The position numbers and the translations under genes were made by a program. Positions 31,835 through 44,494 of a stretch of DNA of 58,684 bases are shown piece after piece. Origin of the DNA: a virus (Duplodnaviria; Caudoviricetes); the IMG/VR virus record IMGVR_UViG_3300046804_001439, positions 1 to 58,684 of that record, one strand, 5' to 3'. The notes beneath the pieces are model-generated. The model did not search any database. It was not told the DNA's origin and was given only the letters and a program-made list of their open reading frames with translations. Numbering within the stretch: the stretch's first letter is position 1; each line of letters opens with the position of its first letter.

Positions 31835-32020
31835 ATTTGTATGATCCAGGGTTTGAAAATGTCCGATTTATCCCATTAGTGCGCCCATATGGCGTTATTT
31901 GTGGCGTATATCACAAACTTTTTTTTCAAAATGTCCGACATGTCCGATTTGCGACTTGATAAATGTCAGTGGGTAGGTATATGCTTAAGGTATAGAAAGT
32001 TAAAGAAAGGAAAACTAAAA

Positions 32021-32185
32021 ATGACTAAAGTTTTATCACATCTAGTAAGTAAATGCCAATCCTGTAATTGGACAGGCGAACCGCAGGATATATTCTGCTC
32101 AGTAGATAAATCACACAAAACAGAACAGATGTTCGCATACTATGAAAAAGAAGTAGGATATACCTACAGTAAGGAGATTATCTAA
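32021..32185 (+). CDS. early hypothetical protein (54 aa)
   Basis: RBS GAAAGGA then ATG 32021; CQSC. Confidence 0.6.
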   Translation: MTKVLSHLVSKCQSCNWTGEPQDIFCSVDKSHKTEQMFAYYEKEVGYTYSKEII

Positions 32186-32394
32186 TGAATAGTCTAAATG
32201 TAATCGTAGAACCTAACCATGATATGGCTAGTAGTAATACTAAATCTAATGAGGTATTCCGCCTCGCTAATGGAAACTATATAAGCCGTAAGGCTTATGT
32301 ATATATGGTAGCCTCAGAGGGTCTTATCTCTCACCGCTACCTATCACCTAACGAAAGCCGTTGGGTTATGGAATATAGAAAGGAAGTAGCATAA
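32185..32394 (+). CDS. early hypothetical protein
   Basis: TAATG coupling, RBS AAGGAG. Confidence 0.65.
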   Translation: MNSLNVIVEPNHDMASSNTKSNEVFRLANGNYISRKAYVYMVASEGLISHRYLSPNESRWVMEYRKEVA

Positions 32395-32588
32395 TGTCTG
32401 CTAACTTATACAATATAGAAAGCTTACTAGTAGGTAAGCGTTATCGTAGTCGCTCTGTTGAGGGCGAAATCGTATCTGCTGAAAAGCATCCTAAAGCCGT
32501 ATGGTATCAAGATGCTGAGGCGTATCTAGTAGAGATACGCAAGAATAGCGGGGGATATACCTACCGCACAGTAGCCGTTAGCGTGTGA
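32394..32588 (+). CDS. early hypothetical protein, paralog of 34412..34618
   Basis: MSANLYNIESLL...AVWY...YLVEIR...RTVAV. Confidence 0.7.
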   Translation: MSANLYNIESLLVGKRYRSRSVEGEIVSAEKHPKAVWYQDAEAYLVEIRKNSGGYTYRTVAVSV

Positions 32589-32689
32589 GGTATCTCACAC
32601 CTAATAGGTAGCGTGTCGGCTTGATAATGTCGGTCAAGTCTGATAGTCTAACGACATAACAAAATAAGAACTAAACGAAAAGGAATAAA

Positions 32690-32854
32690 ATGAAAATCAC
32701 TTACTCAGTATGGCAAGGCTCAATTTGTAAGGGCACAGGATTTACCGCTAAGAAAATGTCAGAGGTAATGGATACAATAAAGGAACTAAACAGCACAGAT
32801 GTAAAGCCTAAGTTTGAGGCGTTCATCTCTAAAGTAGAACAGGAAGTAAAGTAA
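32690..32854 (+). CDS. early hypothetical protein (54 aa)
   Basis: MKITYSVWQGS...; RBS AAACGAAAAGGA. Confidence 0.6.
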   Translation: MKITYSVWQGSICKGTGFTAKKMSEVMDTIKELNSTDVKPKFEAFISKVEQEVK

Positions 32855-33042
32855 TGATGACTAAGTGGGATAGTATTCAAGCAGATGTAGCGGATGCCTA
32901 TGTTTGGATGGATGAAGAAGAACAGTATGAAAAACTAATAAAAGAAGAAGAAGATATTTTCGGATTTGCTAAAGCGATTGAAATTGACCACCTAACAGAT
33001 GAAGAAGTAGATGAAGTATTTGATATGTTTGGAGATAAATAA
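32854..33042 (+). CDS. acidic early protein
   Basis: 62 aa, D/E-rich, TAATG coupling. Confidence 0.65.
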   Translation: MMTKWDSIQADVADAYVWMDEEEQYEKLIKEEEDIFGFAKAIEIDHLTDEEVDEVFDMFGDK

Positions 33043-33171
33043 ATGACTATGAATAGACTACTAACTACCGCCGTTCAATTAGTAATGCTAGGCGTTACTA
33101 TTCCGCTAGTATATGCGACATATAAAGACATAAAAGAAAATGGGTTATTTGGTGATATAAATCACAAATAA
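33043..33171 (+). CDS. 42-aa membrane peptide
   Basis: MTMNRLLTTAVQLVMLGVTIPLVYATYK...; RBS GGAG. Confidence 0.55.
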   Translation: MTMNRLLTTAVQLVMLGVTIPLVYATYKDIKENGLFGDINHK

Positions 33172-33398
33172 TAATCGGCGTGTCGGTTTGACTTTTGTCA
33201 GATCGGCCCGCAGTCTTTTGCGGGCGTTATCCACAGGTTTATGCACAGCTGTGGAAAACCCTGAAGTTTTGAGCGCAAGTTATCCACATGACCTAAATCA
33301 CAAAAATAGTTTTGCGACACGCCCGAAAAACACCCCAAAATGTCAGTGGTCTATGTTAGGATACTAGGTATCAAGATAAAAAAAGAAAGGTGGTCAAA

Positions 33399-33590
33399 AT
33401 GACTACACTAAAATACGAAATCCGAGAGATTACTCTCGCAAATGTTTCCGATGAGGAAGCAAATCAAATTGTTTGCGTTTTCTGCGATGATTACGCTTCA
33501 GATACTTTCTGCGGAAAGTGTAATGAATACAAAGGTCTTATGACGCTTGGTGAATGGTTATCTTATACAAATGAAAGTTGGTTAGCATAA
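33399..33590 (+). CDS. early Zn-finger protein
   Basis: CVFC...CGKCNEYKG; RBS GAAAGGTGG. Confidence 0.65.
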   Translation: MTTLKYEIREITLANVSDEEANQIVCVFCDDYASDTFCGKCNEYKGLMTLGEWLSYTNESWLA

Positions 33591-33697
33591 TGAATTTAGA
33601 TGAATTTAGAAATTATGTTCTCGCTCAGCGAGAGGCTTCTAAAAAAGAAGCAATTGAAATTTTATCCGCTACTATAAAGAAAGAGGTATCTGAATAA
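33590..33697 (+). CDS. 35-aa early peptide
   Basis: MNLDEFRNYVLAQREASKKEA...; TAATG coupling on both sides. Confidence 0.55.
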   Translation: MNLDEFRNYVLAQREASKKEAIEILSATIKKEVSE

Positions 33698-33819
33698 TGG
33701 GATACATAGAAATTTTTCGCCTTGATGAACAAGGTGCTGGTTGGGTTGATTTATCAGAAGCCACTTCTGATGAATTACTAAATTTAGAAATTGGTTTATT
33801 TCAGGAAGGTGCTATCTAA
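33697..33819 (+). CDS. 40-aa acidic early peptide
   Basis: MGYIEIFRLDEQGAGWVDLSEAT...; RBS GAGG. Confidence 0.6.
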   Translation: MGYIEIFRLDEQGAGWVDLSEATSDELLNLEIGLFQEGAI

Positions 33820-34001
33820 TGACTATAACAATTGGTGGATTAGGAAAACAAATTTCCGTTTATTGTTTTGTATGTTCTGAACAAATGTCTCATTGGTGCG
33901 TTGCTAGCAGCGGTTCAATTCGCTATGAATGGAAATGCGAACCTTGCGAATTATCTTTGAAATCAGATCGATTTGGAAATGCTAAATTAATTTCTAAATA
34001 A
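33819..34001 (+). CDS. early Zn-ribbon protein
   Basis: CFVC...CEPC. Confidence 0.6.
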   Translation: MTITIGGLGKQISVYCFVCSEQMSHWCVASSGSIRYEWKCEPCELSLKSDRFGNAKLISK

Positions 34002-34221
34002 CGGCGTGTCGACTTGACAAAGTCGATTTCGCCCGCAAAAGCTATGGGGGCGATTTGTCTGTTATGTCCGATTTATGAATTTCCCTGAAAATTCCTGGAT
34101 CTTGTGATTTTTATCACACGACACGCCGTCTCATTTCTTGAGACTACCCGTCAGTATACTTGATAGTAGCGATTTTTTTTGTTAAACTAACGATAGTTAA
34201 AAATTAGAAAGGAATTAAATT

Positions 34222-34314
34222 ATGTCAGATTTTTTAGATTATTTAGATGAAATTTACGAGGAACTCGTAGATGAATTTGGTCATGAAATCGAATCGAATT
34301 GTATTCATGATTGA
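34222..34314 (+). CDS. 30-aa highly acidic peptide
   Basis: MSDFLDYLDEIYEELVDEFGHEIESNCIHD; own promoter TTGATA-N17-TAAACT and RBS GAAAGGA. Confidence 0.6.
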   Translation: MSDFLDYLDEIYEELVDEFGHEIESNCIHD

Positions 34315-34411
34315 TCAAATGTGATGTAAATCACAACCACGCTTCGGCGTGGCAACCCGAAAATGTCAGACCCGTTTGCTATAATTGCGAACATAAAGAA
34401 AGGAAAACTAA

Positions 34412-34618
34412 ATGTCAGCAAATGTCTATTCAATTGAAAGCCTATTAGAGGGCAAATACTATCGCTCAAATTCAGTAAGCGGAGAAATTACTCACGCCGA
34501 AAAAGATAATCGTGCCGTATGGTATGGAGAAAATTGCGAGAGTTATCTCGTAGAAATCCGACCTGATTATGGTTTCAAAAAAGTTTGGCGAACTTTGGCG
34601 GTGCGTGTCGCCGACTAA
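34412..34618 (+). CDS. early hypothetical protein, paralog of 32394..32588
   Basis: MSANVYSIESLL...AVWY...YLVEIR...RTLAV. Confidence 0.7.
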   Translation: MSANVYSIESLLEGKYYRSNSVSGEITHAEKDNRAVWYGENCESYLVEIRPDYGFKKVWRTLAVRVAD

Positions 34619-34670
34619 ATGTCGGTGGCTTCCGCTATAATACAATTACTAAAACGAAAGGAAAACTAAA

Positions 34671-34820
34671 ATGAGCAAAATGAAAAATGCGATTGAAGAA
34701 ATTCTAAATTGCGAGATTTGTGAGGGCACAGGAATTTCTAGCGGTTGGGTATCACCTGACGGAGATTATGATTTTGAGTGGTGCGATTGTAATCCACACC
34801 ACCTAAGCGTGGCGGAATAA
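34671..34820 (+). CDS. 49-aa Zn-finger peptide
   Basis: CEICEGTG...WCDCNP; RBS AAAACGAAAGGA. Confidence 0.65.
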   Translation: MSKMKNAIEEILNCEICEGTGISSGWVSPDGDYDFEWCDCNPHHLSVAE

Positions 34821-34821
34821 A

Positions 34822-34935
34822 ATGGAAATTTTTATCTGCGACAACTGCTCAACACTAGCCACCTTGTCGGTGGTTGGTGATACAATTCAACTAACAAAAT
34901 GTAAATGCGTAAATGAAAGGGAAACTAATGTATAA
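34822..34935 (+). CDS. 37-aa Cys-rich peptide containing an embedded early promoter
   Basis: MEIFICDNCSTLATLSVVGDTIQLTKCKC... Confidence 0.45.
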   Translation: MEIFICDNCSTLATLSVVGDTIQLTKCKCVNERETNV

Positions 34936-35131
34936 AATAACTTGCGCCTATGATGAAAACGCTCCGCATTGGAGTAAAGAATACTCAGATGAACTAAATG
35001 CTCACGAGGAGTTTGCTAAATTTGTTGATTGGGGATTTGCTGAGGAATACGCAACAATAAACCTATTCACACCTAGCGGAAAATGCTACACCAAAATTTT
35101 TCACCGAAACGGAAAGGTAGTAAAGCGATAA
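34928..35131 (+). CDS. early hypothetical protein
   Basis: MYKITCAYD...; RBS GAAAGGGA. Confidence 0.65.
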   Translation: MYKITCAYDENAPHWSKEYSDELNAHEEFAKFVDWGFAEEYATINLFTPSGKCYTKIFHRNGKVVKR

Positions 35132-35319
35132 TGATGACGAGAAAAGACTATGTAGCAACTGCGGAAATTCTAAACTATGTTTCCGATAAAACACACCCAG
35201 CCGTTTTTTCTAAAATGGTTGTAGATTTTGCGGAGATGTTTGCGAAAGATAATCCACGATTTGACGCTAATCGTTTTTATTCCGCAAGCAATTACAAGAT
35301 ACCAAGTTTCAAAAACTAA
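35131..35319 (+). CDS. early hypothetical protein (MTRKDY...DNPRFD family)
   Basis: Recurring small phage protein motif; TAATG coupling. Confidence 0.7.
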   Translation: MMTRKDYVATAEILNYVSDKTHPAVFSKMVVDFAEMFAKDNPRFDANRFYSASNYKIPSFKN

Positions 35320-35337
35320 AAATGAAAAGGACAGAAA

Positions 35338-35472
35338 ATGAAAAACCTAGAAAGAATAAAACGAGTTTTGGAAATTCGCCGTAGTAATGCGGCGCAACCA
35401 ATTCCAAGCAAAAAACAATATAAAAGAAAACCAAAAAATAAACGAGAGGAAAAAATAGAATGGCAACGCTAA
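35338..35472 (+). CDS. 44-aa very basic peptide
   Basis: MKNLERIKRVLEIRRSNAAQPIPSKKQYKRKPKNK...; RBS AAAGGA. Confidence 0.6.
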   Translation: MKNLERIKRVLEIRRSNAAQPIPSKKQYKRKPKNKREEKIEWQR

Positions 35473-35693
35473 AACCAGGGAGCAAAGGCTACCAAACTGC
35501 TATGGCTACAATTAGAAATAATGCTATAAGAAAACTAATTGCTAACCATGAAACTGAATATAAGAAATACTATACAGCAGAAGCAAAAAAAGCTGGTGTG
35601 TATAAGTATTCAAAGCAGCGTGTTCTTGTTTTAGAAAAACAACTAAAGCAATTACAAACAGAAATTAGAAAGCAAAAACAAATCGCAAAATAA
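35460..35693 (+). CDS. basic coiled-coil early protein
   Basis: 77 aa; RBS GAGG. Confidence 0.6.
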   Translation: MATLKPGSKGYQTAMATIRNNAIRKLIANHETEYKKYYTAEAKKAGVYKYSKQRVLVLEKQLKQLQTEIRKQKQIAK

Positions 35694-35872
35694 TTTCTAT
35701 TTGCCCCGTTGACAAAACGGGGTAAATGCCCGCAACTACGTGTGGGGGCCCAAAGCTCGTTACGTCAAGATCCGACACACCCTGAAAATTTGTGAAATTT
35801 CTCACACAAAATAAATTTGAAAAATGTCAGTCCAAACTGCTATAATGGCGGTTTCAAACGAAAGGAACTTCA

Positions 35873-36370
35873 ATGGGTTTAGATATGTATCTCTCTGCTC
35901 GTAAATATGTAAATAAAATAGATTGGTCTATTCTTGATAAACAAGAAGAAACTGATTATGCTGCTGCCACTTTTTCACAATGGAATGATATTGTAAATGC
36001 TGCTGGCTTAAATCATGTAGCAGATGAAAAAGATATTTATGGCGTAAGTGTTAGCGTAAATGCTGCTTATTGGCGCAAGGCTAATGCTATTCATAAATGG
36101 TTTGTCGATAATGTACAAGACGGGGAAGATAATTGCCAAGAGTTTTATGTATCTCATGCTCAATTAAAAGAGTTACTTACTACTTGCCGTCAAGCGTTAC
36201 TTCATAAAGACCCTAAAGAATTAATGCCCTCTTCAGGTTTCTTCTTTGGCTCATATGATATCGACGAATATTATTGGGGTCAGATAAAGGGAACTATCAA
36301 GCAATTGTCCAAATTGACCGAATTGCCTGATTTTGAAGAATTGTCCTTTTACTATCAGTCGTCGTGGTAA
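35873..36370 (+). CDS. conserved phage protein (MGLDMY...YWRKANAIH family)
   Basis: MGLDMYL, YWRKANAIHKWF, GFFFG, YQSSW motifs. Confidence 0.8.
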   Translation: MGLDMYLSARKYVNKIDWSILDKQEETDYAAATFSQWNDIVNAAGLNHVADEKDIYGVSVSVNAAYWRKANAIHKWFVDNVQDGEDNCQEFYVSHAQLKELLTTCRQALLHKDPKELMPSSGFFFGSYDIDEYYWGQIKGTIKQLSKLTELPDFEELSFYYQSSW

Positions 36371-36420
36371 TCTGTCAGTACCCCCTGCTATAATATCCGC
36401 ATAAACGAAAGGAAAAACTT

Positions 36421-36570
36421 ATGTGTGCCGTATGCTATGGAAATGCTCATGGGCTAACTGCCTATTCTATCAAGCCTAATAATCTATGTGTAATCCACTA
36501 TCAAGAATGGGCTCATGAAAAAACTTTTGACGAATTGGAAGGTACTCATGACTATTTTGAACTCTGCTAA
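36421..36570 (+). CDS. 49-aa Cys/His peptide
   Basis: MCAVC...CVIH; extended RBS upstream. Confidence 0.55.
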   Translation: MCAVCYGNAHGLTAYSIKPNNLCVIHYQEWAHEKTFDELEGTHDYFELC

Positions 36571-37288
36571 ATTAAAACGCTCTAACGATAGAAAGGTCGC
36601 TAATGCCGTCTCTAAAAATGGAAAAACCCCAACAATTGCCAACACCTTTGGATTACCCGCAGGAAAAAATTTCTCATGTCCTGGTGCAACGTCTATCTGT
36701 GAGACTGTTTGCTATGCTGGAAAATTGGAGAAAGTATACAAGGGAGTAAGGGCTAATCTCTTACACAACTGGGAATTGCTACGCAATGCAGATATGGATA
36801 CCATGCTGCTATTGCTAGATGAAATGATTGTTGACTTTGTTAACGATTGTGAAAAAAAGTCTGCAGATAAATTATTCCGTATCCACTGGGACGGAGATTT
36901 CTTTAATGATACCTACGCATATGCGTGGAAGACTGTTATCTCTAATCATCCCGATGTTCAGTTTTGGGTATATACACGAGTAAAGTCTGCAGCGCTTATT
37001 CTTAAGGATATTCCTAACCTATCTCTTTATTTTTCTACCGACGATGAAAATAAAGATACTGGACACGAATTAAAAAAGAATAATAATAATATCCGCCTTG
37101 CCTATTTAGGAAAAACTTTTGCTGTCACCGAAAGTACGATGAAAGAATTAACTGGCAAGCCTGGTGCAAAATGTCCCGAAAATAATAAAAGTATTCCGTT
37201 AATTTCTACTAACGGCTCTGCATGTGTATCATGTGGATTATGTGTTTATGGAAAAGCAGATGTTAGATTTAGCGCAACTAAAAAATGA
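36548..37288 (+). CDS. Gp88-family (radical-SAM-like) protein
   Basis: CPGATSICETVCYA, FRIHWDGDF, FWVYTR, C-terminal CP...CVSCGLC. Confidence 0.7.
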   Translation: MTILNSAKLKRSNDRKVANAVSKNGKTPTIANTFGLPAGKNFSCPGATSICETVCYAGKLEKVYKGVRANLLHNWELLRNADMDTMLLLLDEMIVDFVNDCEKKSADKLFRIHWDGDFFNDTYAYAWKTVISNHPDVQFWVYTRVKSAALILKDIPNLSLYFSTDDENKDTGHELKKNNNNIRLAYLGKTFAVTESTMKELTGKPGAKCPENNKSIPLISTNGSACVSCGLCVYGKADVRFSATKK

Positions 37289-37298
37289 GGAGATAAAA

Positions 37299-37412
37299 AT
37301 GAAATACTTTAACGCATTAATGGCCACGGTCCTTGGTGATGAAGATCAGCGTGAAGCTGCGTTACAATATTTAAAAGAAGTAGATCCAGAAATTTGGGGC
37401 CAGGAGGAATAA
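37299..37412 (+). CDS. 37-aa hypothetical peptide
   Basis: RBS GAGGAG; MKYFNALMATVLGDEDQREAAL... Confidence 0.55.
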   Translation: MKYFNALMATVLGDEDQREAALQYLKEVDPEIWGQEE

Positions 37413-37575
37413 AGGGCCCGCAAGTATGTGCGGGGTTTTCCACAGGCTTACGGGTAAATTGTGGATAACCCTAGATTTTGTGAGAAATCTCACAAAGCTG
37501 CGACACGCCGATAATGGATTAGTAAATGTCGGTGGCTTAGGCTATAATTGCGCTATCAACAAACGAAAGGTAAAA

Positions 37576-37827
37576 ATGAAAGATATGACTAGATGGGCAT
37601 TATTCCCATTCACAGTTGACGGAGTAGAATTCGTATCCAAATTAGATATCGAAGGCTCAATGTATCAGCAAGTAAAAAAAGTGCCTGCTCATGTATTTAA
37701 TTCTATGAACGAAAGCGCTATCCGTGAGTTAGTCGGTAAAGTCTCTCTCATGTCTAGAGATGAAATTCAGGTAGAACTAGACCGTGTTAATGAAGGCTAT
37801 CAACAGGCTTATATAGCCCTAGCGTAA
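37576..37827 (+). CDS. early hypothetical protein
   Basis: Start after AAACGAAAGG RBS. Confidence 0.65.
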   Translation: MKDMTRWALFPFTVDGVEFVSKLDIEGSMYQQVKKVPAHVFNSMNESAIRELVGKVSLMSRDEIQVELDRVNEGYQQAYIALA

Positions 37828-37881
37828 TAATGTCGGTGGGTAGGTGTATAATCTACCCACCGCAACAACGAAAGGAAAAAA

Positions 37882-38157
37882 ATGTTATCAACCGCTATTG
37901 AAATCTTAGATGTAACTAGAGATAGTATCTTTGACGACGACATAATGGGATTAGCAGGCGAACTACACACACGCCGAAACGAACTCTCAGATGAAATCTA
38001 TGCTAAGTATTTATTTATGTATTCATCGGCTATTGCTAGTAAAGTAGCAGACGGAGTAACTAAAGTATTACTAACAGAACAACAAATGTCCGACCTTATT
38101 GCTACAATAGAGGAAATGGACAACCTATCCGAAACTATCTTAGAGGAGAACGAATAA
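37882..38157 (+). CDS. acidic early protein
   Basis: 91 aa; extended RBS. Confidence 0.7.
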   Translation: MLSTAIEILDVTRDSIFDDDIMGLAGELHTRRNELSDEIYAKYLFMYSSAIASKVADGVTKVLLTEQQMSDLIATIEEMDNLSETILEENE

Positions 38158-38433
38158 ATGGGAAGTAATCTCGCTTATGACCTTGCGTCAGATGAACTAG
38201 GCTTAGACTTAGAAACTGCTATTGGCTATCACTTACAGGGTAATCATTACCCACCCGTCCCGCTATCTATGGTCGAACCTTGTATTGAGGCTATTGACGC
38301 TTATTGGGACGAGGACTATAACAAACTGATCGAAATGCCTAAAGGTGTAACTTATCGTGGAGATAGATACGCACCCGCTCACGCTATTGTGGAACAGCAC
38401 CACTTAGATGCGTGGCTACCGAATTGTGACTAA
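38158..38433 (+). CDS. early hypothetical protein (HL-x-GNHYPPVP family)
   Basis: RBS GAGGAG; IVEQHHLDAW end. Confidence 0.7.
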   Translation: MGSNLAYDLASDELGLDLETAIGYHLQGNHYPPVPLSMVEPCIEAIDAYWDEDYNKLIEMPKGVTYRGDRYAPAHAIVEQHHLDAWLPNCD

Positions 38434-38503
38434 AATCACATAGGCAGAGGATACCGCTTGTCGGTGGCTTCTGCTATAATCAACCCCTAACGAAAGGAAA
38501 AAA

Positions 38504-38653
38504 ATGAACACACTAGAAATCGGACAGACAATCACAACCGCAAAAAGCGGTGTTGTCGGAGTAATCAAGGCAGTAGATAACCACCCAAGCGGTGTAAGTC
38601 GTGTATTGCTTGATGTTGATGGAACAGAACGCTGGACAAGCGTATCTAACTAA
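38504..38653 (+). CDS. 49-aa beta-rich (SH3-like) peptide
   Basis: MNTLEIGQTITTAKSGVVGVIKAVD...RWTSV; extended RBS. Confidence 0.6.
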   Translation: MNTLEIGQTITTAKSGVVGVIKAVDNHPSGVSRVLLDVDGTERWTSVSN

Positions 38654-38662
38654 ATAAAGATA

Positions 38663-38689
38663 AGACCTGAGTAAGTCTATAAACTACTC
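38663..38689 (+). ncRNA. compact H-type pseudoknot, copy 1
   Basis: P1 AGAC/GTCT, loop CTGAGTAA, P2 GAGTA/TACTC. Confidence 0.6.
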
Positions 38690-38753
38690 CACAACTTTGT
38701 CGGTGGTATCCGCTATACTATCGGCTCAACAACCAACTAACGAAAGGAAACAA

Positions 38754-39176
38754 ATGAGTAGAGGAAAAGCGATAAATGTAAAAATCGCAACTACTAAGGT
38801 AATCAAGGCACTAGAAACTCGCCTTGCGAAACTAAATAAGGATTGGGAAAGCCAATCTGAAAATGAAGCAAAGCACCAAAAGGCTATTGAGAAGTGGCGT
38901 AAGGAAGTCGGTAAGTTTGCTATTGCTAACATAGCAAAAGCAGAAAACTTCCACACAAACTATCGCTCTTGGAACAAAACCCTAAATGTGGATTTTGACC
39001 TAACTTGTGCTGAGGGAGATTTCCCTGCTGAACCACAGCGAGATTTTGAGCAACTTCATCAGCATACTTACAATGAGATGAAAGAGGAAATGGAAAACGC
39101 AATCCGTATTCTCAAAATGACCGACGAGGAAGTAGTTTCTACTTCTACTTACAACGCTATCGCAAGATACTTGTAA
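38754..39176 (+). CDS. early hypothetical protein
   Basis: MSRGKAINVKIAT...; extended RBS. Confidence 0.7.
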   Translation: MSRGKAINVKIATTKVIKALETRLAKLNKDWESQSENEAKHQKAIEKWRKEVGKFAIANIAKAENFHTNYRSWNKTLNVDFDLTCAEGDFPAEPQRDFEQLHQHTYNEMKEEMENAIRILKMTDEEVVSTSTYNAIARYL

Positions 39177-39244
39177 TAATGGCAGGGGGCTAGACAAAAT
39201 CTAGCCCCCAATGCTATAATCTTTATCCCTACTAACAGAAAGAA

Positions 39245-39493
39245 ATGAAAATGAAAAATCGTTTTCGTGTAGAAATCTATGATGAGGACAAGAACAATGA
39301 CCTCACAATTTATTCAGAGCAAGGCGTAGATAAAGAGTATCTAACTGAATTAGTTTTTTCTAATCTCCGCCGCTTCTCTGGAAATATTCGTGCTTATGTT
39401 TATGACCAACTAAAGAAAAAGAAAACAACAGCACTTTATTTACCAATGGAAGTTTTGCCAAAGAAAACTGAACTAACTAAACTGCTGGGCTAA
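39245..39493 (+). CDS. early hypothetical protein
   Basis: 82 aa; upstream TAGACA-N18-TATAAT. Confidence 0.65.
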   Translation: MKMKNRFRVEIYDEDKNNDLTIYSEQGVDKEYLTELVFSNLRRFSGNIRAYVYDQLKKKKTTALYLPMEVLPKKTELTKLLG

Positions 39494-39736
39494 TGATCTT
39501 GGGGCGGGTTTGGAAATAGTGTAATCAGAGCTCTTCCCGCCCCATCTTCCCATCTCAAATAATAAGACGCCCCCACAGCTGCGGGGTTATCCACAGCCTT
39601 ACGGCAACCTGTGGAAAACTCCCAAATTTTTGTGATATTGATCACCTGGACAATTCGGACATAATGAAACTAACTATTTACAATGTCGGTGGGGTCTGCT
39701 ATAATTTGGATTCAAATAAACCTAGAAAGGAAAATC

Positions 39737-40744
39737 ATGGCTCATAACCTTGAAACAAATGGCAACGAAGTTGCCTTTGCTTTGCGTGGAACTCCCGCTT
39801 GGCACAATCTCGCTAACCGAATCTTTAATCAAGATGAAACTGTTAGCACACAACTAATGCTCGATGAAGCAAAACTATCTAATTGGAATGTTTCGCTTTC
39901 TCCTGTTGCTGACCATATTCCCGCAGAATGGAATGATTCAAGCGGTGCTCAATATGTAACTAGAACTAATCCGTTTAATGGCGGAACTGATGTTCTCTCT
40001 GTTGTTGGCTCACGCTATAAAGTGGTTCAGAATGAAGAATTATTTTCATTCGCTGATAATATCCTAGACGGAGATTCTCGCTGTGCTTGGGAATCTGCTG
40101 GTTCTCTAAAGAATGGAAAAGTTGTTTTCGGTTCTTTAACTGTTCCCCGTGAAATGGTGTTAGACCCACAAGGTGCTAACGATAAAACCAAATTGTATTT
40201 AATTGTTTGGACTTCTCACGACGGGTCTGTTGCTGTTCAGGCAGCAATTACTCCTGTGCGTGTAGTTTGCCAAAATACTCTTAATCTTGCTATGCGTAAT
40301 GCTAAGCAATCTTTCAAGATTCGCCACACGCAGACCGCTGAGGGTAAGATTCAAATTGCTCGTGAAACTCTTGGGCTTGCTCTTGGATACTTTGATGAAT
40401 TCGAGAAAGAAGCGCAGGAACTCTTCAAGCAGGAAATTACTGATAAGCAATTCTCTGACCTTATCAAAACAATTTATCCTAAGCCTGAAGATAAATCTAA
40501 ATTGGCTCTTACTAAGTGGGAAAATAAAGTTGTTTTAATTGACGACCTTTATTTTAATTCACCTACTAACGCTAATATCAAAGGCACAAAGTGGGGTGCG
40601 TTTAATGCGCTTACTGAACGCCTTGATTATTTCCGTTCAACTCGTAAGAATAATTCAGAATCTAAGTGGGCTTCTGCTTCAGGTTTTGACCCAATTATTA
40701 CCGCCGAGAAAAATAAAATTCTCAAGTTGGTAAAATCATTCTAA
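39737..40744 (+). CDS. DUF932-family phage/plasmid protein
   Basis: MAH...PAWH, YKVVQNEELF, ESAGSL, SHDGS, TPVRVVCQNTL, IRHT motifs. Confidence 0.85.
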   Translation: MAHNLETNGNEVAFALRGTPAWHNLANRIFNQDETVSTQLMLDEAKLSNWNVSLSPVADHIPAEWNDSSGAQYVTRTNPFNGGTDVLSVVGSRYKVVQNEELFSFADNILDGDSRCAWESAGSLKNGKVVFGSLTVPREMVLDPQGANDKTKLYLIVWTSHDGSVAVQAAITPVRVVCQNTLNLAMRNAKQSFKIRHTQTAEGKIQIARETLGLALGYFDEFEKEAQELFKQEITDKQFSDLIKTIYPKPEDKSKLALTKWENKVVLIDDLYFNSPTNANIKGTKWGAFNALTERLDYFRSTRKNNSESKWASASGFDPIITAEKNKILKLVKSF

Positions 40745-40760
40745 GTAAATAACTTAGAAA

Positions 40761-40788
40761 AAATCCTGAGCAAGATTTAAAACTGCTC
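40761..40788 (+). ncRNA. compact H-type pseudoknot, copy 2
   Basis: P1 AAATC/GATTT, loop CTGAGCAA, P2 GAGCA/TGCTC; compensatory changes versus copy 1. Confidence 0.6.
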
Positions 40789-40795
40789 ACCATTT

Positions 40796-40871
40796 GGTTC
40801 CGTAGAATAGTTTGGTTTAATTCGCTACCCTGTCACGGTAGAGATCACGGGTTCAAATCCCGTCGGAATCG
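40796..40871 (+). tRNA. tRNA-Asp(GUC)
   Basis: GGTTCCG/CGGAATC acceptor, CTACC/GGTAG anticodon stem with loop CTGTCAC, T-loop TTCAAAT. Confidence 0.9.
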
Positions 40872-41002
40872 CAAGCTGAGATTTAAATATCAATATGTGA
40901 GACGCCCCCAGACTTAAAGGCCGATTTTTTGTGTTACGAATCACAAAAATAATCCCTGGAAAAGCTGGACAAATGTCAGTGGGGCCCTGTATAATTCTCG
41001 GC

Positions 41003-41659
41003 ATGACAGAAACCTGGACTAAAAATACATATGCATGCGACCCTGATGAATGTGATACTTTGATCGAAATTACAACATCAGATAAATTTGGATTCCCATC
41101 TGGGAGTGTGAATAATGTCACATGTCCATGTGGACGTAGACCCAATCTTTTGTCAGTGGAGCCTGCTACAATTGCACCAACAATCGAAAGGAATGAAATG
41201 GAAACAACAAGCACAATGCCTGATACGTATAATCCTAATCTTCTTGTTACATACAAGTCGATTAATGATAACTATGAGGCAACATATCCAAGTATAAAGG
41301 TTGTGGACCTAGAGGGAAAACTAGATTCCTTGGTCCGCCTTGAAAAGCAACTAATGAAGAGCAATGGTCAAATTGGTCAGATTATTGATAATCTAACTGT
41401 TGAGGGTTGGTATAATCCAAACACAGATAAAGAAGATATTCTGCGTGACCTTTGCGAAATTCTCGAACACGAGGCTAAGCAAGATATTACAATTACTGCA
41501 ACTGTGCAGGTAGAAGTTACCTATGCATGTCCATTAGACGAGGTCGAAGACTTCGATGCTAAATACTTCTTGCAAGATAACTTAACTGTAGATTCATGGC
41601 ACGGAGACGTTGTTATCGAATCATTCGATGTTGAAGACGCAGATGTGAGTTGGTCCTAA
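41003..41659 (+). CDS. early protein with N-terminal Cys module and in-frame internal start (41198)
   Basis: ATG 41003 is 7 nt after -10; internal promoter and RBS precede in-frame ATG 41198. Confidence 0.65.
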   Translation: MTETWTKNTYACDPDECDTLIEITTSDKFGFPSGSVNNVTCPCGRRPNLLSVEPATIAPTIERNEMETTSTMPDTYNPNLLVTYKSINDNYEATYPSIKVVDLEGKLDSLVRLEKQLMKSNGQIGQIIDNLTVEGWYNPNTDKEDILRDLCEILEHEAKQDITITATVQVEVTYACPLDEVEDFDAKYFLQDNLTVDSWHGDVVIESFDVEDADVSWS

Positions 41660-41871
41660 TGTATTTTGAGTTGACTGCTCCAAACCAGGTGGCCCTGCAA
41701 AGGGCCTACTGGTCTGCAGAAATGATGGGACTAGACCCTCAATTAATTGCACCATTGACATTCAATATTGGAACTGGTAGTATTGAGAAAGTAAGTTCAA
41801 TCAGAGATACATATAATCTAAAAGAAACTTATGTATCAGACTACGAGCCAACAGGATATACAAGGAGATAG
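41659..41871 (+). CDS. early hypothetical protein
   Basis: MYFELTAP...; TAATG coupling. Confidence 0.6.
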   Translation: MYFELTAPNQVALQRAYWSAEMMGLDPQLIAPLTFNIGTGSIEKVSSIRDTYNLKETYVSDYEPTGYTRR

Positions 41872-41873
41872 AA

Positions 41874-42029
41874 ATGGATTACCAAGACGGTTTTGAAGAC
41901 GGTGTTAAATTTGCTCGTGAGGTTATTGTTGCCAATATTAGACAGTGGGCGGAATCATCTGACGATGGACAAATTTATGATGATATCGCTGACAGAATTG
42001 AATTTGGTACAGTAGACTATGACCTCTGA
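41874..42029 (+). CDS. 51-aa acidic peptide
   Basis: MDYQDGFEDG...; RBS AAGGAG. Confidence 0.6.
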   Translation: MDYQDGFEDGVKFAREVIVANIRQWAESSDDGQIYDDIADRIEFGTVDYDL

Positions 42030-42228
42030 GGATCTAAATAAATGGATTGGGTGTGACCAATGTGGTTCCGCCCAAGCTATGTATCTAATTAAATTAATGG
42101 ACGGGGAATTAGCATTCTGTGGCCATCATTTTAATAAAAACAAAGAGGCCCTTGACAAGGTAGCCTATGAAATTATACAATTGAATAAGACAGAAGAAGT
42201 ACCACAAATAGAAAAGGAAGAGGTATAA
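42019..42228 (+). CDS. actinobacterial-type small Zn protein (DUF7455-like)
   Basis: CDQCGSAQA...GELAFCGHH resembles the actinobacterial CDRCGAQA...GELLFCxHH family. Confidence 0.6.
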   Translation: MTSEDLNKWIGCDQCGSAQAMYLIKLMDGELAFCGHHFNKNKEALDKVAYEIIQLNKTEEVPQIEKEEV

Positions 42229-42231
42229 ACG

Positions 42232-42639
42232 GTGGGAGATAGAGCAAATTTCGGATTCGTACAACCGAACGGTAACACAATAGTACTATATGGGCACTGG
42301 GCAGGATATCAGATGTTAGGCAAACTAGCGGACGCCGTCATCGCTGCTCGTCCTCGTTGGAATGACCCAGCATATGCTACACGTATTGCAATTAGCCAAA
42401 TCATTGGCAACGATTGGAATGCGGAGACTGGCTTCGGACTACATGTCAATGAAATCTCAGACAATGAGCACAAGATTGCTATTATTGATTGGGACCAACA
42501 GATATTTAGTCTTCATGAACAGGATGAATTCCGTAACACGGATAACAAGGTCCGTGGCATGAAGAACGAAGCACTTTTCACAATGGACCTTTCGGCATTC
42601 TGTGAGAAGTATGCACTCGAAGGAATGCTAGTCAACTAA
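42232..42639 (+). CDS. conserved actinophage early protein
   Basis: MGDRAN...LYGHWAG...RWNDPAYATRI. Confidence 0.7.
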   Translation: MGDRANFGFVQPNGNTIVLYGHWAGYQMLGKLADAVIAARPRWNDPAYATRIAISQIIGNDWNAETGFGLHVNEISDNEHKIAIIDWDQQIFSLHEQDEFRNTDNKVRGMKNEALFTMDLSAFCEKYALEGMLVN

Positions 42640-42656
42640 TATGCTATAATAGGACT

Positions 42657-42811
42657 AGGTCTTTGTGGCCTGTTCGTTGAATAGTAAGGTGCGGCTATTA
42701 GGCTTCCGCCAAGTCGCTAAGTAATGCAGCTTTTACTTAAATTCCTTTCGTTTTGCTAGCAGCCTTACTTGTTTTAAATCCCCCAGTAGCTTTCCTGGGG
42801 GATTTTTCTTT
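42657..42811 (+). ncRNA. candidate ~155-nt structured sRNA (sRNA-A) antisense to early RBS
   Basis: TGCTATAAT at 42642..42650; 5' hairpin; long stem 42683-42692/42759-42769 enclosing two hairpins and unpaired AATTCCTTTCGTTTT; strong terminator; no credible ORF. Confidence 0.75.
42776..42811 (+). terminator. intrinsic terminator of sRNA-A
   Basis: AAATCCCCCAG/CTGGGGGATTT stem then TTCTTT. Confidence 0.8.
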
Positions 42812-42982
42812 GCCCTCAGCTGGTGAGGGTAACATATCTCTTTTACGGTTGTCAACTATTTTCCCTGAAAATTTCACAATATGAGATCGAGCTCGATCAA
42901 TGTGGTGGGCATCACAGGGATATATTATAGACAAATGTCAGTGGTCGGATATATAATAGGAACCTAAGCGAAAGGAAACAAT

Positions 42983-43759
42983 ATGCCAAATTGGGTATAT
43001 AACACAGTAACAATTCAAGGTCCAAAAGAGGAAATTGATTATATCAAGGATAGATTGAATCGTCCATTTACTTTAGCACAAGAGACATATGGTATGGGTG
43101 ATATTAGTCTTTCAGGATTCCCCACCAAAATTAAGCAGGTTGAATATAACAATCCTGTATTTGCATTCCATAATATCTATTCCTATAAAGATGCTGGAAT
43201 TACTGATGAAGAGTATGCACGTCAACCTGACCGTGGCAATATAGACATGAAGAATGACCCTGATTGGTTCCGCAAGTCTGTTGAATTTGCTAAGACCCAA
43301 AAGGATTGGTATTCATGGAATAATTCCAACTGGGGAACTAAATGGGATGTTGCTGTTCGTGATGATGATGAATATCCTGAAACAGAACTAATTGAATATA
43401 AGTCAGAGGGTGACGATAATTGGCTAGTATATAAATATAATACTGCTTGGTCTCCTGCTGTAACTATCTTAGAAAAACTATCTCATCTTGTTCCGAACTC
43501 TCTTATTACATTAGAATACGAAGAAGAACAGGGTTGGGGTGGAGAGATAGAAATAGTTAGAGGTAAAGTAACAGAACTCTATGACTATGATTCTAAATGC
43601 TATGCATGTGATTCTCTAGATACATTAGATTATTGCGATAATGACTGTGGTCAATTTTGCTCTAATTGTAATCAAGGTTCTTGGCAGGATGAAGAGGCTA
43701 TGGCAAAATGTCAGACCCACATGGTATTATTGGAAACTACAGAAAAGGCGGAAGCATAA
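42983..43759 (+). CDS. YubB/DUF1281-like ferredoxin-fold protein
   Basis: MPNW, WYSWNNSNWGTKWD, TAWSP motifs. Confidence 0.75.
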   Translation: MPNWVYNTVTIQGPKEEIDYIKDRLNRPFTLAQETYGMGDISLSGFPTKIKQVEYNNPVFAFHNIYSYKDAGITDEEYARQPDRGNIDMKNDPDWFRKSVEFAKTQKDWYSWNNSNWGTKWDVAVRDDDEYPETELIEYKSEGDDNWLVYKYNTAWSPAVTILEKLSHLVPNSLITLEYEEEQGWGGEIEIVRGKVTELYDYDSKCYACDSLDTLDYCDNDCGQFCSNCNQGSWQDEEAMAKCQTHMVLLETTEKAEA

Positions 43760-44019
43760 TGGCAGATAGACTAGAACTAAATGACCGTGGTTCATTTTTA
43801 GATGATGAAAATGAAATGGTTATTGGAGCAATTATTCAGGAGATATCTGAACAATTGTTTGAAGATTGGAATAACTCTAATTTAGATGAGGGCACATTCT
43901 ATGCAGATTGGAAGATTGCTGAATTGTCTAATGATAATTATCTAAAAGGTAGATTTAATCAGTTTTATGATTTGACACCTGATGATGATGAATATCTAGA
44001 ATGGGATGAGGAGAAATAA
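43759..44019 (+). CDS. very acidic early protein
   Basis: MADRLELNDRGSFLDDENE...; atypical RBS AAGGCGG; TAATG coupling. Confidence 0.65.
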   Translation: MADRLELNDRGSFLDDENEMVIGAIIQEISEQLFEDWNNSNLDEGTFYADWKIAELSNDNYLKGRFNQFYDLTPDDDEYLEWDEEK

Positions 44020-44171
44020 TGTTAGGATATGACTTAGAGGATTTAAATATAATGATGGATACATTAGGGGATACTCTGACTTCCGCCAAATTAACTAAAC
44101 AGCAACAAGGTGGATTATTAACTACTCTAACATTCTTACAAGGTCTATGGGCAGAGGGGTATTTTGAATAA
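44019..44171 (+). CDS. 50-aa peptide (MLGY...GLWAEG)
   Basis: RBS GAGGAG; TAATG coupling on both sides. Confidence 0.6.
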   Translation: MLGYDLEDLNIMMDTLGDTLTSAKLTKQQQGGLLTTLTFLQGLWAEGYFE

Positions 44172-44494
44172 TGGGACTATATGACGAATCCTGGTGTGTA
44201 GACTGTGGTAAATCACAGCCATATTCACCTGATGATGTAGTATGTGGTTCATGTACATCTGAGGCATATGAATCCCGTTCTAATCATTTAATTGAATATA
44301 TAAAGCTTCATTTAATTAGTCTTGAACAAGACATTGAGAAGTTATCTGATGAAATGGAAAAGGTAGATATGAACTCTAAGGCCTTTAATGATATGGACTT
44401 TGAATATAATAATCTATCAGGGCAGTCTATTGCTACCCGCCATTTATTGTCAGTGGCTAGTGATATACTGGGCATTCAAACAGAGGAGAAATAA
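44171..44494 (+). CDS. Zn-finger/coiled-coil early protein
   Basis: CVDC...CGSC then heptads. Confidence 0.65.
   Translation: MGLYDESWCVDCGKSQPYSPDDVVCGSCTSEAYESRSNHLIEYIKLHLISLEQDIEKLSDEMEKVDMNSKAFNDMDFEYNNLSGQSIATRHLLSVASDILGIQTEEK

What the first reader, a model, noticed from the sequence alone, without database searches (positions are those of the whole stretch)
42642..42811. Phage sRNA-A carries the exact antisense of the RBS shared by early genes: candidate master translational switch
Seen: a TGCTATAAT promoter, ~155 nt with no credible ORF, nested stems and a strong terminator. The predicted unpaired multiloop segment UUCCUUUCGUUUU (42742..42754) is the perfect reverse complement of AAAACGAAAGGAA at 34651. 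It also pairs over 10-12 nt with the RBSs at 35856, 36403, 37561, 37867, 38489, 38739, 41185 and 42966 (G:U). The AACG extension 5' of the SD is not needed for 16S pairing, yet it is conserved. The sRNA promoter lacks the TGTCRG box of the early promoters, so it may fire at a different time. Inference: one trans-acting RNA silences (or gates) translation of a dispersed early regulon. This would supply a mechanism for start-associated sequences of the kind described, without known function, in cluster K mycobacteriophages.
Basis: partly seen in the sequence, partly recalled or inferred. Interest (0 to 1): 0.92.

Follow-up and report, generated by a model that had tools for sequence, protein, structure and literature searches.

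The report
Phage RNA mirroring early-gene leaders
A large family of uncultured lake phages of actinobacteria keeps a small folded RNA whose exposed loop is the mirror image of the ribosome-binding tag at the front of about a dozen of the phage's own early messages, so one RNA probably controls that whole gene set, though no transcript or effect has been measured.

Summary
At 42642-42811 a TGCTATAAT box, a 5' hairpin, an 85-nt three-way-junction RNA and a terminator lie in a gene-free gap. Its loop UUCCUUUCGUUUU is the exact antisense of the AACGAAAGGAA tag found 12 times (1.1 expected) on the plus strand. Eleven of these sit 7-17 nt after the -10 of TGTCRG early promoters and 3-8 nt before ATG.

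The RNA has no Rfam family. It occurs in at least 120 IMG/VR contigs, once per genome. Helices covary (206 double changes against 74 in shuffles), and CUUUCGUU is exact in 65 of 70 distinct copies.

Natural variants support pairing. Phages whose leaders read AAAGAAAGG have no seed in this RNA. They carry another hairpin with four different stems and the invariant loop ACCUUUCUUU. One phage that lost the seed shows CCUUUCGUU in a new hairpin.

Not shown: a discrete transcript, timing, or repression. The core persists without the seed, so pairing is not its only job.

This scan already followed up the same family on other DNA (e1-6008421, e1-5997635, e1-5997656, e1-6025591). A similar anti-tag hairpin exists in Cluster K mycobacteriophage Adephagia.

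The parts
42232..42639 (+). 135-aa gene of unknown function (phrog_31860) that precedes the RNA
   Evidence: ORF. No Pfam hit; PHROG of unknown function. A seed-bearing RNA follows within 260 nt in 129 of 132 distinct homologues. RNA-library contig X1 record 5 runs from 42543 into the RNA at 42697.
42642..42650 (+). Extended -10-like box TGCTATAAT without the TGTCRG box of the early promoters
   Evidence: Read. Of 142 distinct RNA loci with flanks, 0 have a TGTCRG promoter upstream and 94 have TGnTAnnAT within 15-80 nt upstream. This is a pattern match only.
42657..42671 (+). 5' hairpin AGGUC-UUUGU-GGCCU
   Evidence: A hairpin is present at the same place in many relatives, with a different sequence.
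42684..42768 (+). Conserved three-way-junction core. P1 is 42684-42690 with 42762-42768. P2 is 42691-42696 with 42712-42717. P2b is 42701-42703 with 42708-42710. J2/3 (UAAGUAAU) is 42718-42725. P3 is 42726-42760.
   Evidence: Model R1 scores 85.6 bits, E 4e-16, with one hit per genome. Covariation.
42742..42754 (+). Anti-leader seed UUCCUUUCGUUUU; the invariant part CUUUCGUU is 42745-42752
42776..42811 (+). Intrinsic-terminator-like hairpin plus T-run
   Evidence: A terminator-like element follows 110 of 142 distinct loci.
34653..34663 (+). Leader tag AACGAAAGGAA (13-nt perfect match from 34651). Promoter box at 34620; ATG 7 nt after the tag.
35857..35867 (+). Leader tag, exact; promoter box at 35825
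36404..36414 (+). Leader tag, exact; promoter box at 36373
37562..37572 (+). Leader tag AACGAAAGGTA; promoter box at 37527
37867..37877 (+). Leader tag, exact; promoter box at 37831
38489..38499 (+). Leader tag, exact; promoter box at 38459
38739..38749 (+). Leader tag, exact; promoter box at 38698
41183..41193 (+). Leader tag ATCGAAAGGAA; promoter box at 41151
42967..42977 (+). Leader tag AGCGAAAGGAA of the 258-aa gene just downstream; promoter box at 42936
32002..32012 (+). Variant leader tag AAAGAAAGGAA (G:A mismatch to the seed); promoter box at 31964
34395..34405 (+). Variant leader tag AAAGAAAGGAA; promoter box at 34364

Best explanation
The locus encodes a structured, non-coding, trans-acting 'anti-leader' RNA. 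It is either transcribed from its own extended -10 promoter (about 155 nt, 42657 to about 42811) or carried as the 3' part of the upstream gene's message. Its P3 loop base-pairs with the AACGAAAG(GAA) tag. That tag lies within the first ~20 nt of the short leaders made from the TGTCRG early promoters and contains their Shine-Dalgarno bases. Pairing would cover the ribosome-binding site of about ten early messages at once. This would most likely lower their translation as the RNA accumulates, giving a post-transcriptional early shut-off. Shown here: the conservation, the fold, exposure of the seed, the complementarity, the placement of the tags, and that seed and tag differ together in variant lineages. 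Inferred: that the RNA is made as a discrete species, that it pairs in vivo, and that the outcome is repression. The conserved three-way junction, which persists without the seed, probably serves as a scaffold for a second role such as stability or a protein partner.
For: (1) Enrichment and placement. There are 13 tag sites against 1.1 expected. Eleven of the 12 plus-strand sites lie 7-17 nt after the -10 of a TGTC[AG]G-N10-12-TAnnnT promoter and 3-8 nt before ATG. The window has 19 such promoters with N10 spacing on the + strand and 1 on the - strand. The same layout is seen in complete relatives G001-G005.
(2) Conservation. The RNA lies in the same gap in 69 of 70 aligned distinct intergenic regions with exact CTTTCGTT. 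There is one copy in each of 11 records searched whole or in large part.
(3) Structure. On 70 distinct rows, 95.4% of cells are paired against 79.0% in shuffles. There are 206 double-change cells against 73.8 +/- 8.2 (0 of 500 shuffles reach this). The covariation score is 0.417 against at most 0.086 for slid partners.
(4) Seed. CTTTCGTT is exact in 65 of 70 distinct rows. In the 47 rows with CU[UUCGUU]GG, the flanking pair is A:U in 25, U:A in 21 and C:A in 1, so the stem varies while the loop is fixed. Mean unpaired probability of the seed is 0.66, against 0.42 for all bases, over 58 RNAs.
(5) Targets in relatives. Of 742 distinct promoter-plus-leader contexts, 533 read AAC-GAAAG and 100 read xxA-GAAAG.
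(6) Seed and tag change together. In G006, G009, G015 and G016 most leaders read AAAGAAAGG. AAAGAAAGG versus AACGAAAGG on the gene strand is 8 to 3 in G015 and 9 to 3 in G016; the G006 and G009 leader lists are. Their canonical RNA has an unrelated P3 loop. The single reverse copy of AAAGAAAGG in each of G014, G015 and G016 is the loop U(U/C)ACCUUUCUUU of a different hairpin, and four different stems close that loop.
(7) Seed relocation. G010 has 11 AACGAAAG on the gene strand. Its canonical RNA lacks the seed, and a new 11-bp hairpin shows UUCCCUUUCGUUG in its loop.
(8) Co-absence. In L291-L293 the RNA has a short seedless P3, and 0 of 9 promoters listed carry AACGAAAG; several give leaderless starts.
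(9) Extent matches. Where the seed reads UUCCUUUCGUU, the leaders are G at +1 in 96-100% and A at +2 and +3 in 70-86%. Where only the hexaloop is exposed, these positions are relaxed.
(10) Duplex energy. The leaders give -17.6 to -19.7 kcal/mol, against a mean of -6.5 +/- 2.9 over 23,462 windows on both strands.
Against: No discrete transcript, 5' or 3' end, or timing is shown. The four RNA libraries laid hold contigs of relatives (90-99% alike). One of these runs from the upstream gene into the RNA, which fits read-through or DNA carry-over as well as an sRNA.
Of 142 distinct loci, 37 have no -10-like box and 32 have no terminator-like element.
The duplexes are short and A/U-rich. Two unrelated sites score as well or better: 44761 at -21.8 and 27380 at -19.9.
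Both partners are nearly invariant, so base-by-base covariation rests on few lineages. The AAAGAAAGG phages G006, G009, G015 and G016 are close kin (94-100% identity in a neighbouring protein). G014 carries the variant hairpin but has 2 AAAGAAAGG and 2 AACGAAAGG. L295 has the seed CUUUCGAU although 4 of its 5 listed tags remain AACGAAAG.
The core junction is kept in seedless relatives, so the RNA has a function that does not need pairing.
The loop also resembles the 16S 3' tail, so complementarity to SD-like tags is partly confounded with anti-SD mimicry.
The direction of the effect is pure inference.
Confidence: 0.6

Rival explanations
1. The RNA's real job lies in its conserved three-way junction, for example binding a phage or host protein or the ribosome, or mimicking the 16S 3' tail. 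The anti-leader loop is then an accessory, or a by-product of the tags being Shine-Dalgarno-like.
For: P1, P2, J2/3 and the invariant letters (GGUGC, CUA, UAA-UAAAGC, GCAGCC) are kept in five seedless or altered rows of 70, and in G006, G009 and G015. The RNA is linked to the 135-aa gene in 129 of 132 distinct homologues. The loop shares CCUUUC with the actinobacterial 16S tail (recalled).
Against: The complementarity covers AAC, which 16S cannot reach. Two other, unrelated hairpin scaffolds display the matching antisense of their own phages' tags. The loop is invariant while its closing pairs vary. No protein partner could be named: the neighbour protein has no Pfam family and no fold match.
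Confidence: 0.2
2. It is a cis-acting element: the structured 3' UTR and terminator of the upstream operon, or an attenuator or riboswitch-like leader for what lies downstream.
For: It sits directly after a stop codon and ends in a terminator. Of 142 loci, 37 lack a -10-like box. An RNA-library contig bridges the gene and the RNA. The junction is conserved like an aptamer.
Against: The terminator sequence is not conserved and is missing in 32 of 142 loci. The next gene has its own TGTCRG promoter at 42936, with a repeated intergenic cassette in between. No Rfam riboswitch or leader reaches threshold. A cis role does not explain an invariant loop that mirrors tags kilobases away, nor the variant hairpins.
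Confidence: 0.08
3. The tag acts at the DNA level as an asymmetric operator just downstream of the early start sites, like the stoperators of Cluster A mycobacteriophages (recalled). The reversed copy would be one more binding site.
For: The tag has a fixed position 7-17 nt after the -10 and a single orientation. The paper on Cluster K raises protein or RNA binders as open options for similar tags (PMC3203893, passages seen).
Against: The reversed copies lie in the loops of RNA hairpins whose stems covary, in three different scaffolds. DNA binding does not predict this. The tag contains the SD and keeps an SD-like distance to ATG.
Confidence: 0.05
4. Chance or compositional coincidence between an A/G-rich RBS and a pyrimidine-rich loop.
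For: Short A/U-rich duplexes are common; unrelated sites reach -20 to -22 kcal/mol.
Against: 0 of 100 shuffles reach the motif count. The 8-mer is exact in 65 of 70 distinct RNAs. Variant tag and variant loop co-occur.
Confidence: 0.02

Closest known systems
c4 antisense RNA of phages P1 and P7 (immI region)
   Same: A phage-encoded, structured, trans-acting RNA whose complementary stretches sit in loops and pair around a ribosome-binding site to block translation. It lies on the same strand and in the same transcription unit as what it controls (review PMC12197685, passage seen).
   Different: c4 controls one operon (icd-ant) for immunity. Here about ten dispersed promoters share the tag. There is no sequence or model similarity: no Rfam family reached threshold. 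The host is an actinobacterium, not an enterobacterium.
Start-associated sequences (SAS/ESAS) of Cluster K mycobacteriophages (Pope et al. 2011, PMC3203893; passages seen)
   Same: A private tag that includes the SD, lies 3-7 nt before the start codons of non-structural genes, has one orientation, extends beyond what 16S can pair with, and occurs in actinobacteriophages that carry WhiB. The paper notes a single reverse copy not tied to a gene. In Adephagia that copy is the 10-nt loop of a long intergenic hairpin.
   Different: The tag sequence differs (GGGATAGGAGCCC). SAS are not tied to a promoter box in that paper's passages. No RNA partner has been proposed in print as far as my searches show. 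In Ekdilam the loop has drifted although the SAS has not.
T4 RegA translational repressor (recalled; the T4 review PMC3014915 was seen only in a search listing)
   Same: One phage product turns down translation of many early messages by acting at their initiation regions.
   Different: RegA is a protein; here the candidate effector is an RNA acting by base pairing.
Multi-target bacterial sRNAs that occlude ribosome-binding regions (GcvB; RsaE/RoxS-type C-rich loops), recalled
   Same: One conserved single-stranded seed is matched to a motif shared by many mRNAs.
   Different: Those are host-encoded, target metabolic regulons and belong to other RNA families. Here seed and targets are both phage-borne and tied to one promoter class.

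Membership tests
Any Rfam 15 family (including the C4 antisense RNA family) | Covariance-model score at or above the family's gathering score | tested here: not met
   The whole window at gathering threshold gives only 3 tRNAs. At E up to 10, the best hit in 42600-43000 is NsiR1 at 26.1 bits against a gathering score of 39, driven by the terminator.
tRNA / tmRNA | Cloverleaf or tmRNA architecture found by ARAGORN | tested here: not met
   There are 3 tRNAs elsewhere and none at 42642-42811. None is found at the G006 variant hairpin.
Trans-encoded base-pairing sRNA (functional class) | Discrete transcript with its own promoter and terminator | tested here: inconclusive
   Promoter-like and terminator-like elements are present in the window and in 94 and 110 of 142 distinct loci. 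RNA-library contigs cannot show ends, and one bridges from the upstream gene.
Trans-encoded base-pairing sRNA (functional class) | Conserved, accessible seed | tested here: met
   65 of 70 distinct rows are exact. Unpaired probability is 0.66 against 0.42. The seed is the loop of P3 in the consensus.
Trans-encoded base-pairing sRNA (functional class) | Complementarity to initiation regions of several mRNAs | tested here: met
   12 plus-strand sites, 11 of them promoter-linked, lie 3-8 nt before ATG. The same holds in G001-G005.
Trans-encoded base-pairing sRNA (functional class) | Seed and target change together in relatives | tested here: met
   AAAGAAAGG leaders go with an ACCUUUCUUU loop in G006, G009, G015 and G016. 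Few independent lineages are involved. G014 and L295 are only partly consistent.
Trans-encoded base-pairing sRNA (functional class) | Measured regulation of targets | not testable with these tools
Riboswitch / transcription attenuator | Conserved sensor domain joined to a conserved terminator/antiterminator switch directly upstream of the regulated ORF | tested here: not met
   The junction is conserved, but the terminator is unconserved and absent in 32 of 142 loci. A separate promoter at 42936 drives the next gene.
Cluster K SAS system | 13-bp tag GGGATAGGAGCCC | tested here: not met
   The window's tag is AACGAAAGGAA. The SAS was counted only in Adephagia and Ekdilam.
Cluster K SAS system | Tag a few nt before start codons of non-structural genes, one orientation, one reverse copy | tested here: met
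   Window: 12 forward and 1 reverse, 3-8 nt to ATG. Adephagia: 16 forward and 1 reverse.

The most novel reading that the evidence does not exclude
Anti-leader RNAs are a general device of phages. A phage marks a whole temporal class of its messages with a private 5' tag overlapping the ribosome-binding site, and encodes one small RNA (on interchangeable scaffolds) that displays the tag's antisense in a loop, giving regulon-wide translational control. The unexplained start-associated sequences of Cluster K mycobacteriophages would be the same system, their lone reverse copy being the seed of an unannotated RNA in the gp92-gp93 gap of Adephagia-like phages.
Probability: 0.35. Interest if true: 0.9.

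Novelty: new variant of a known kind. Interest (0 to 1): 0.78.

Why it matters
Temporal control in phages is explained almost entirely by transcription factors, sigma factors and a few protein translational repressors. A single RNA aimed at a tag shared by a promoter class would be a compact post-transcriptional timer. It would also be portable across mosaic genomes: the neighbouring-gene tree does not track the RNA classes.

The family is abundant in freshwater actinophages (at least 120 contigs) and is absent from Rfam.

The parallel found in Adephagia turns a question open since 2011, namely what start-associated sequences are for, into a direct test in a culturable laboratory system. The test is to mutate the hairpin loop and read out the SAS genes.

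Naturally occurring tag and seed pairs (CG and CU versions) could also serve as orthogonal translational switches for actinobacteria.

Tried and rejected
Searches that found nothing useful
- blastn of 42232-43000 against the GenBank phage collection found nothing.
- The first genome pattern, with a fixed 12-nt spacing to ATG, found nothing and was replaced by free reading of the sites.
- Host from genomes: the RNA pattern hit only three 2.9-3.5 kb MAG contigs with discordant labels (Bacteroidia, Polynucleobacter, unnamed), probably mis-binned phage pieces. The actinobacterial host rests instead on a WhiB hit.

Alignment
- MAFFT alignment A1 put the seed of the window's class out of register with the others. 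This was solved by refitting to model R1.

Literature
- My recollection that PAK_P3 sRNA2 targets RBSs was wrong. The paper's passages name a tRNA T-loop match and single phage genes.
- Literature searches for a phage sRNA against a shared early leader gave none. Supplementary files were not opened.

Rejected readings
- Minus-strand gene: no start codon follows the tag, and there is no promoter on that strand.

RNA-seq
- All 24 runs held only 6-12% of the words.
- The four runs laid hold relatives' contigs.
- Stretches without cover (most of 42796-42980) and contig depths are not interpretable.
- No ends were listed.

Variant hairpin
- A 14-nt loop pattern was unspecific: 115 unrelated stretches, and 0 resembled the G006 hairpin. 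Relatives were then found through the neighbouring 343-aa protein.
- In G011 the only same-strand CCTTTCTTT is the RBS of a divergent gene, so no variant hairpin is seen in that 24%-complete record.
- The G006 hairpin region has no Rfam family or tRNA-like call.

Phylogeny and the neighbouring protein
- A tree of the 258-aa neighbour, meant to count independent events, does not track the RNA classes (41 label changes). The careful search was unfinished, so I give no count of events.
- Neighbouring 135-aa protein: the model is confident (pLDDT 86.3), but there is no Foldseek match at E<=0.001 and the best VIA Z is 3.3. The Atlas hits (0.83-0.85) are leads only.

- That loop is not conserved among relatives. 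I did not pursue it.
Full report
WHAT IS THERE

The window is an IMG/VR virus record of 58,684 bases, estimated 52% complete. Late and structural genes lie on the minus strand. A block of small plus-strand genes runs from about 28.5 to 46.3 kb.

The finding lies in the 343-nt gap between a 135-aa gene (42232-42639) and a 258-aa gene (42983-43759). Its parts are:
- TGCTATAAT at 42642-42650
- a 5' hairpin at 42657-42671
- a nested multi-helix fold
- a terminator-like hairpin at 42776-42805 followed by a T-run

The 155-nt stretch folds at -49.5 kcal/mol (z -3.58; 0 of 200 shuffles as stable), and the seed is unpaired in the centroid. No Rfam family reaches threshold, and ARAGORN finds no tRNA or tmRNA there.

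THE TAG

AACGAAAGGAA with up to one mismatch occurs 13 times, against 1.12 expected. Twelve copies are on the plus strand between 32002 and 42967. One is on the minus strand at 42742-42752, which is the RNA's loop read backwards.

Eleven of the 12 plus-strand copies lie 7-17 nt after the -10 of a TGTC[AG]G-N10-12-TAnnnT promoter and 3-8 nt before an ATG. The window has 19 such promoters with N10 spacing on the plus strand and one on the minus strand.

So the tag is the 5'-proximal part of very short leaders and contains the GAAAGG Shine-Dalgarno bases. The host is probably an actinobacterium, because the window encodes a WhiB protein (E 9e-12). From recalled knowledge, actinobacterial 16S rRNA ends in CCUUUCU-3'. 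GAAAGG would then pair with 16S, while AAC lies beyond its end.

CONSERVATION AND STRUCTURE

Relatives were found through the two flanking proteins: 55 loci, and 80 of 208. Both genes flank a gap in 126 loci, giving 71 distinct gaps.

In the alignment of the window plus 69 distinct gaps, 69 of the 70 carry exact CTTTCGTT.

A covariance model finds exactly one copy in the window and in each of ten phage records searched whole or in large part.

On 100 matches (70 distinct rows) the three-way junction is well supported:
- 95.4% of cells are paired, against 79.0% in shuffles
- 206 double-change cells, against 73.8 +/- 8.2 (0 of 500 shuffles reach this)
- covariation score 0.417, against at most 0.086 with slid partners

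P2 alone shows G-C, C-G, A-U and U-A at one position. The invariant letters cluster in the junction and in the P3 loop.

THE SEED

CTTTCGTT is exact in 65 of 70 distinct rows.

In two large classes P3 ends in an apical hairpin, xCU[UUCGUU]GGy. The x:y pair is A:U in 25 rows, U:A in 21 and C:A in 1. The stem therefore changes while the hexaloop does not.

In the window's class the loop is larger and reads UUCCUUUCGUU. Part of it (UUUACUUA) can pair with J2/3 (UAAGUAAA), which leaves the seed single-stranded. Over 58 distinct RNAs the seed's mean unpaired probability is 0.66, against 0.42 for all bases.

TARGETS IN RELATIVES

Complete genomes G001-G005, G007 and G008 have the same TGTCRG promoters followed by (C/A-rich)AACGAAAG and an ATG. 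Of 742 distinct promoter-plus-leader contexts, 533 read AAC-GAAAG and 100 read xxA-GAAAG.

The extent of conservation matches the extent of the seed. With the UUCC seed, the leaders are G at +1 in 96-100% and A at +2 and +3 in 70-86%. With the hexaloop classes, these positions are relaxed.

In the window, the leaders give duplex energies of -17.6 to -19.7 kcal/mol, against -6.5 +/- 2.9 for all 30-nt windows. Two unrelated sites do as well or better.

NATURAL EXPERIMENTS

(a) G006, G009, G015 and G016.
- Their early leaders mostly read AAAGAAAGG. In G015, 8 read AAAGAAAGG and 3 read AACGAAAGG; in G016 the counts are 9 and 3.
- Their canonical RNA keeps P1, P2 and J2/3 but has an unrelated P3 loop.
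- The single reverse copy of AAAGAAAGG in each of G014, G015 and G016 is the loop U(U/C)ACCUUUCUUU of a different, GC-rich hairpin upstream of a DUF932-like gene.
- That loop is closed by four different stems in G006, G016, G015 and G014.

(b) G010. This record has 11 AACGAAAG on the gene strand. Its canonical RNA lacks the seed, and an 11-bp hairpin elsewhere shows UUCCCUUUCGUUG in its loop.

(c) L291-L293. These have a short seedless P3. None of the 9 promoters listed carries AACGAAAG, and several put an ATG 6-8 nt after the -10, meaning leaderless starts. L109 is similar.

(d) Less tidy cases.
- G014 has the variant hairpin but 2 AAAGAAAGG and 2 AACGAAAGG, and no canonical RNA in the 20 kb searched.
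- L295 has the seed CUUUCGAU, while four of its five listed tags remain AACGAAAG and one is AUCGAAAG.

The AAAGAAAGG phages are close kin, and a tree of the neighbouring protein does not track RNA classes. I therefore cannot say how many independent events these represent.

EXPRESSION

Twenty-four RNA runs from 23 studies hold 6-12% of the sampled words of a 1.9-kb stretch. In the four runs laid, the contigs are 90-99% alike, so they come from relatives.

One contig (X1 record 5, 185 nt) runs from 42543 across the stop codon to 42697, and its loose end continues with a relative's P2. Another (X5) covers 42710-42772.

This shows that the region is present in RNA libraries and contiguous with the upstream gene. 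It does not show a discrete RNA, its ends or its strand.

Of 142 distinct loci, 0 have a TGTCRG box upstream of the RNA, 94 have an extended -10-like box, 11 have a plain one and 37 have none. A terminator-like element follows in 110. In part of the family the RNA may therefore be made or processed from the upstream message.

READING

The best-supported reading is a trans-acting anti-leader RNA whose loop covers the ribosome-binding tag of the TGTCRG regulon. Repression of early translation is the likeliest outcome, but this is inferred.

The persistence of the junction in seedless relatives means the scaffold has a second role. The RNA's tight linkage to the 135-aa gene (129 of 132 distinct homologues) makes that protein a candidate partner. 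However, it has no Pfam family, a PHROG of unknown function and no fold match.

COMPARISON WITH WHAT IS KNOWN

It works like the c4 RNA of P1 and P7 (review passage) and, at the level of logic, like T4 RegA (recalled). It is a member of neither.

The closest described phenomenon is the start-associated sequence of Cluster K mycobacteriophages. The paper leaves its function open and notes one reverse copy per K1 genome.

I checked Adephagia:
- There are 16 forward SAS copies and one reverse copy.
- The reverse copy is the 10-nt loop CCUCCUAUCC of a long hairpin in the 432-nt gp92-gp93 gap (z -5.2).
- The region is kept in 137 Mycobacterium phage records.
- The loop is kept in 6 of 9 diverse members, with stem changes on both sides.
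- In Ekdilam the loop has drifted although the SAS has not.

This is a lead, not a result.

EARLIER NOTES OF THIS SCAN

The same RNA family was already followed up on other genomes, with the same reading. That includes the remark that other loops on the same core show a further role. Anti-leader RNAs were also proposed in unrelated phages. I treat these as leads. Everything cited above was recomputed here.

Noticed in passing
L306:33640-33720 (Mycobacterium phage Adephagia JF704105, record about 58640-58720): The single reverse-oriented start-associated sequence of this Cluster K phage is the 10-nt apical loop (CCUCCUAUCC) of a long hairpin in the 432-nt gp92-gp93 gap. The region is kept in 137 phage records. 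The loop is kept in 6 of 9 aligned, with compensating stem changes, but has drifted in Ekdilam, whose SAS is unchanged.
   Followed up: partly
L297:3255-3345 (G006:83255-83345); also L517 about 11165-11265, L518 about 13130-13230 and L520 about 16725-16825: A second RNA type: a GC-rich hairpin upstream of a DUF932-like gene with the invariant loop U(U/C)ACCUUUCUUU and four different stems. It occurs in phages whose early leaders read AAAGAAAGG. No Rfam or tRNA match.
   Followed up: partly
L302 about 2690-2740, minus strand (G010): An 11-bp hairpin with the loop UUCCCUUUCGUUG, in a phage whose canonical RNA lacks the seed. It was not found in the other loci held at that point.
   Followed up: partly
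window 42812-42880: A second conserved element right after the terminator: GCCCnCA...GAGGGTA hairpin, then TTTACG and GTCAA. It is kept in all 70 aligned gaps. Its function is unknown.
   Followed up: no
window 31964-44448, plus strand: A promoter class with a TGTCRG box exactly 10 nt before a TAnnnT hexamer, closer than a -35 box would be. There are 19 copies on the plus strand and 1 on the minus strand. It is shared by all relatives read.
   Followed up: partly
L291, L292, L293: In this lineage several TGTCAG promoters place an ATG 6-8 nt after the -10. These are likely leaderless early messages, as is common in actinobacteria.
   Followed up: no
window 42232-42639: The 135-aa protein linked to the RNA gives a confident AlphaFold model (pLDDT 86.3, pTM 0.83) with no solved-structure match (best Foldseek E 0.3; best VIA Z 3.3). 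In G006 and G015 its distant homologue lies after the RNA, not before it.
   Followed up: partly
window 55440-55793 (-), 36515-37285 (+), 39683-40741 (+): WhiB (E 9e-12), the GP88 family of mycobacteriophages (E 7.5e-54) and DUF932 (E 1.5e-56). Together these point to an actinobacterial host.
   Followed up: no
window 42880-42925 and the same place in relatives: TGTGATCTTGACCACA-like palindromes lie between the conserved cassette and the next promoter in many relatives.
   Followed up: no
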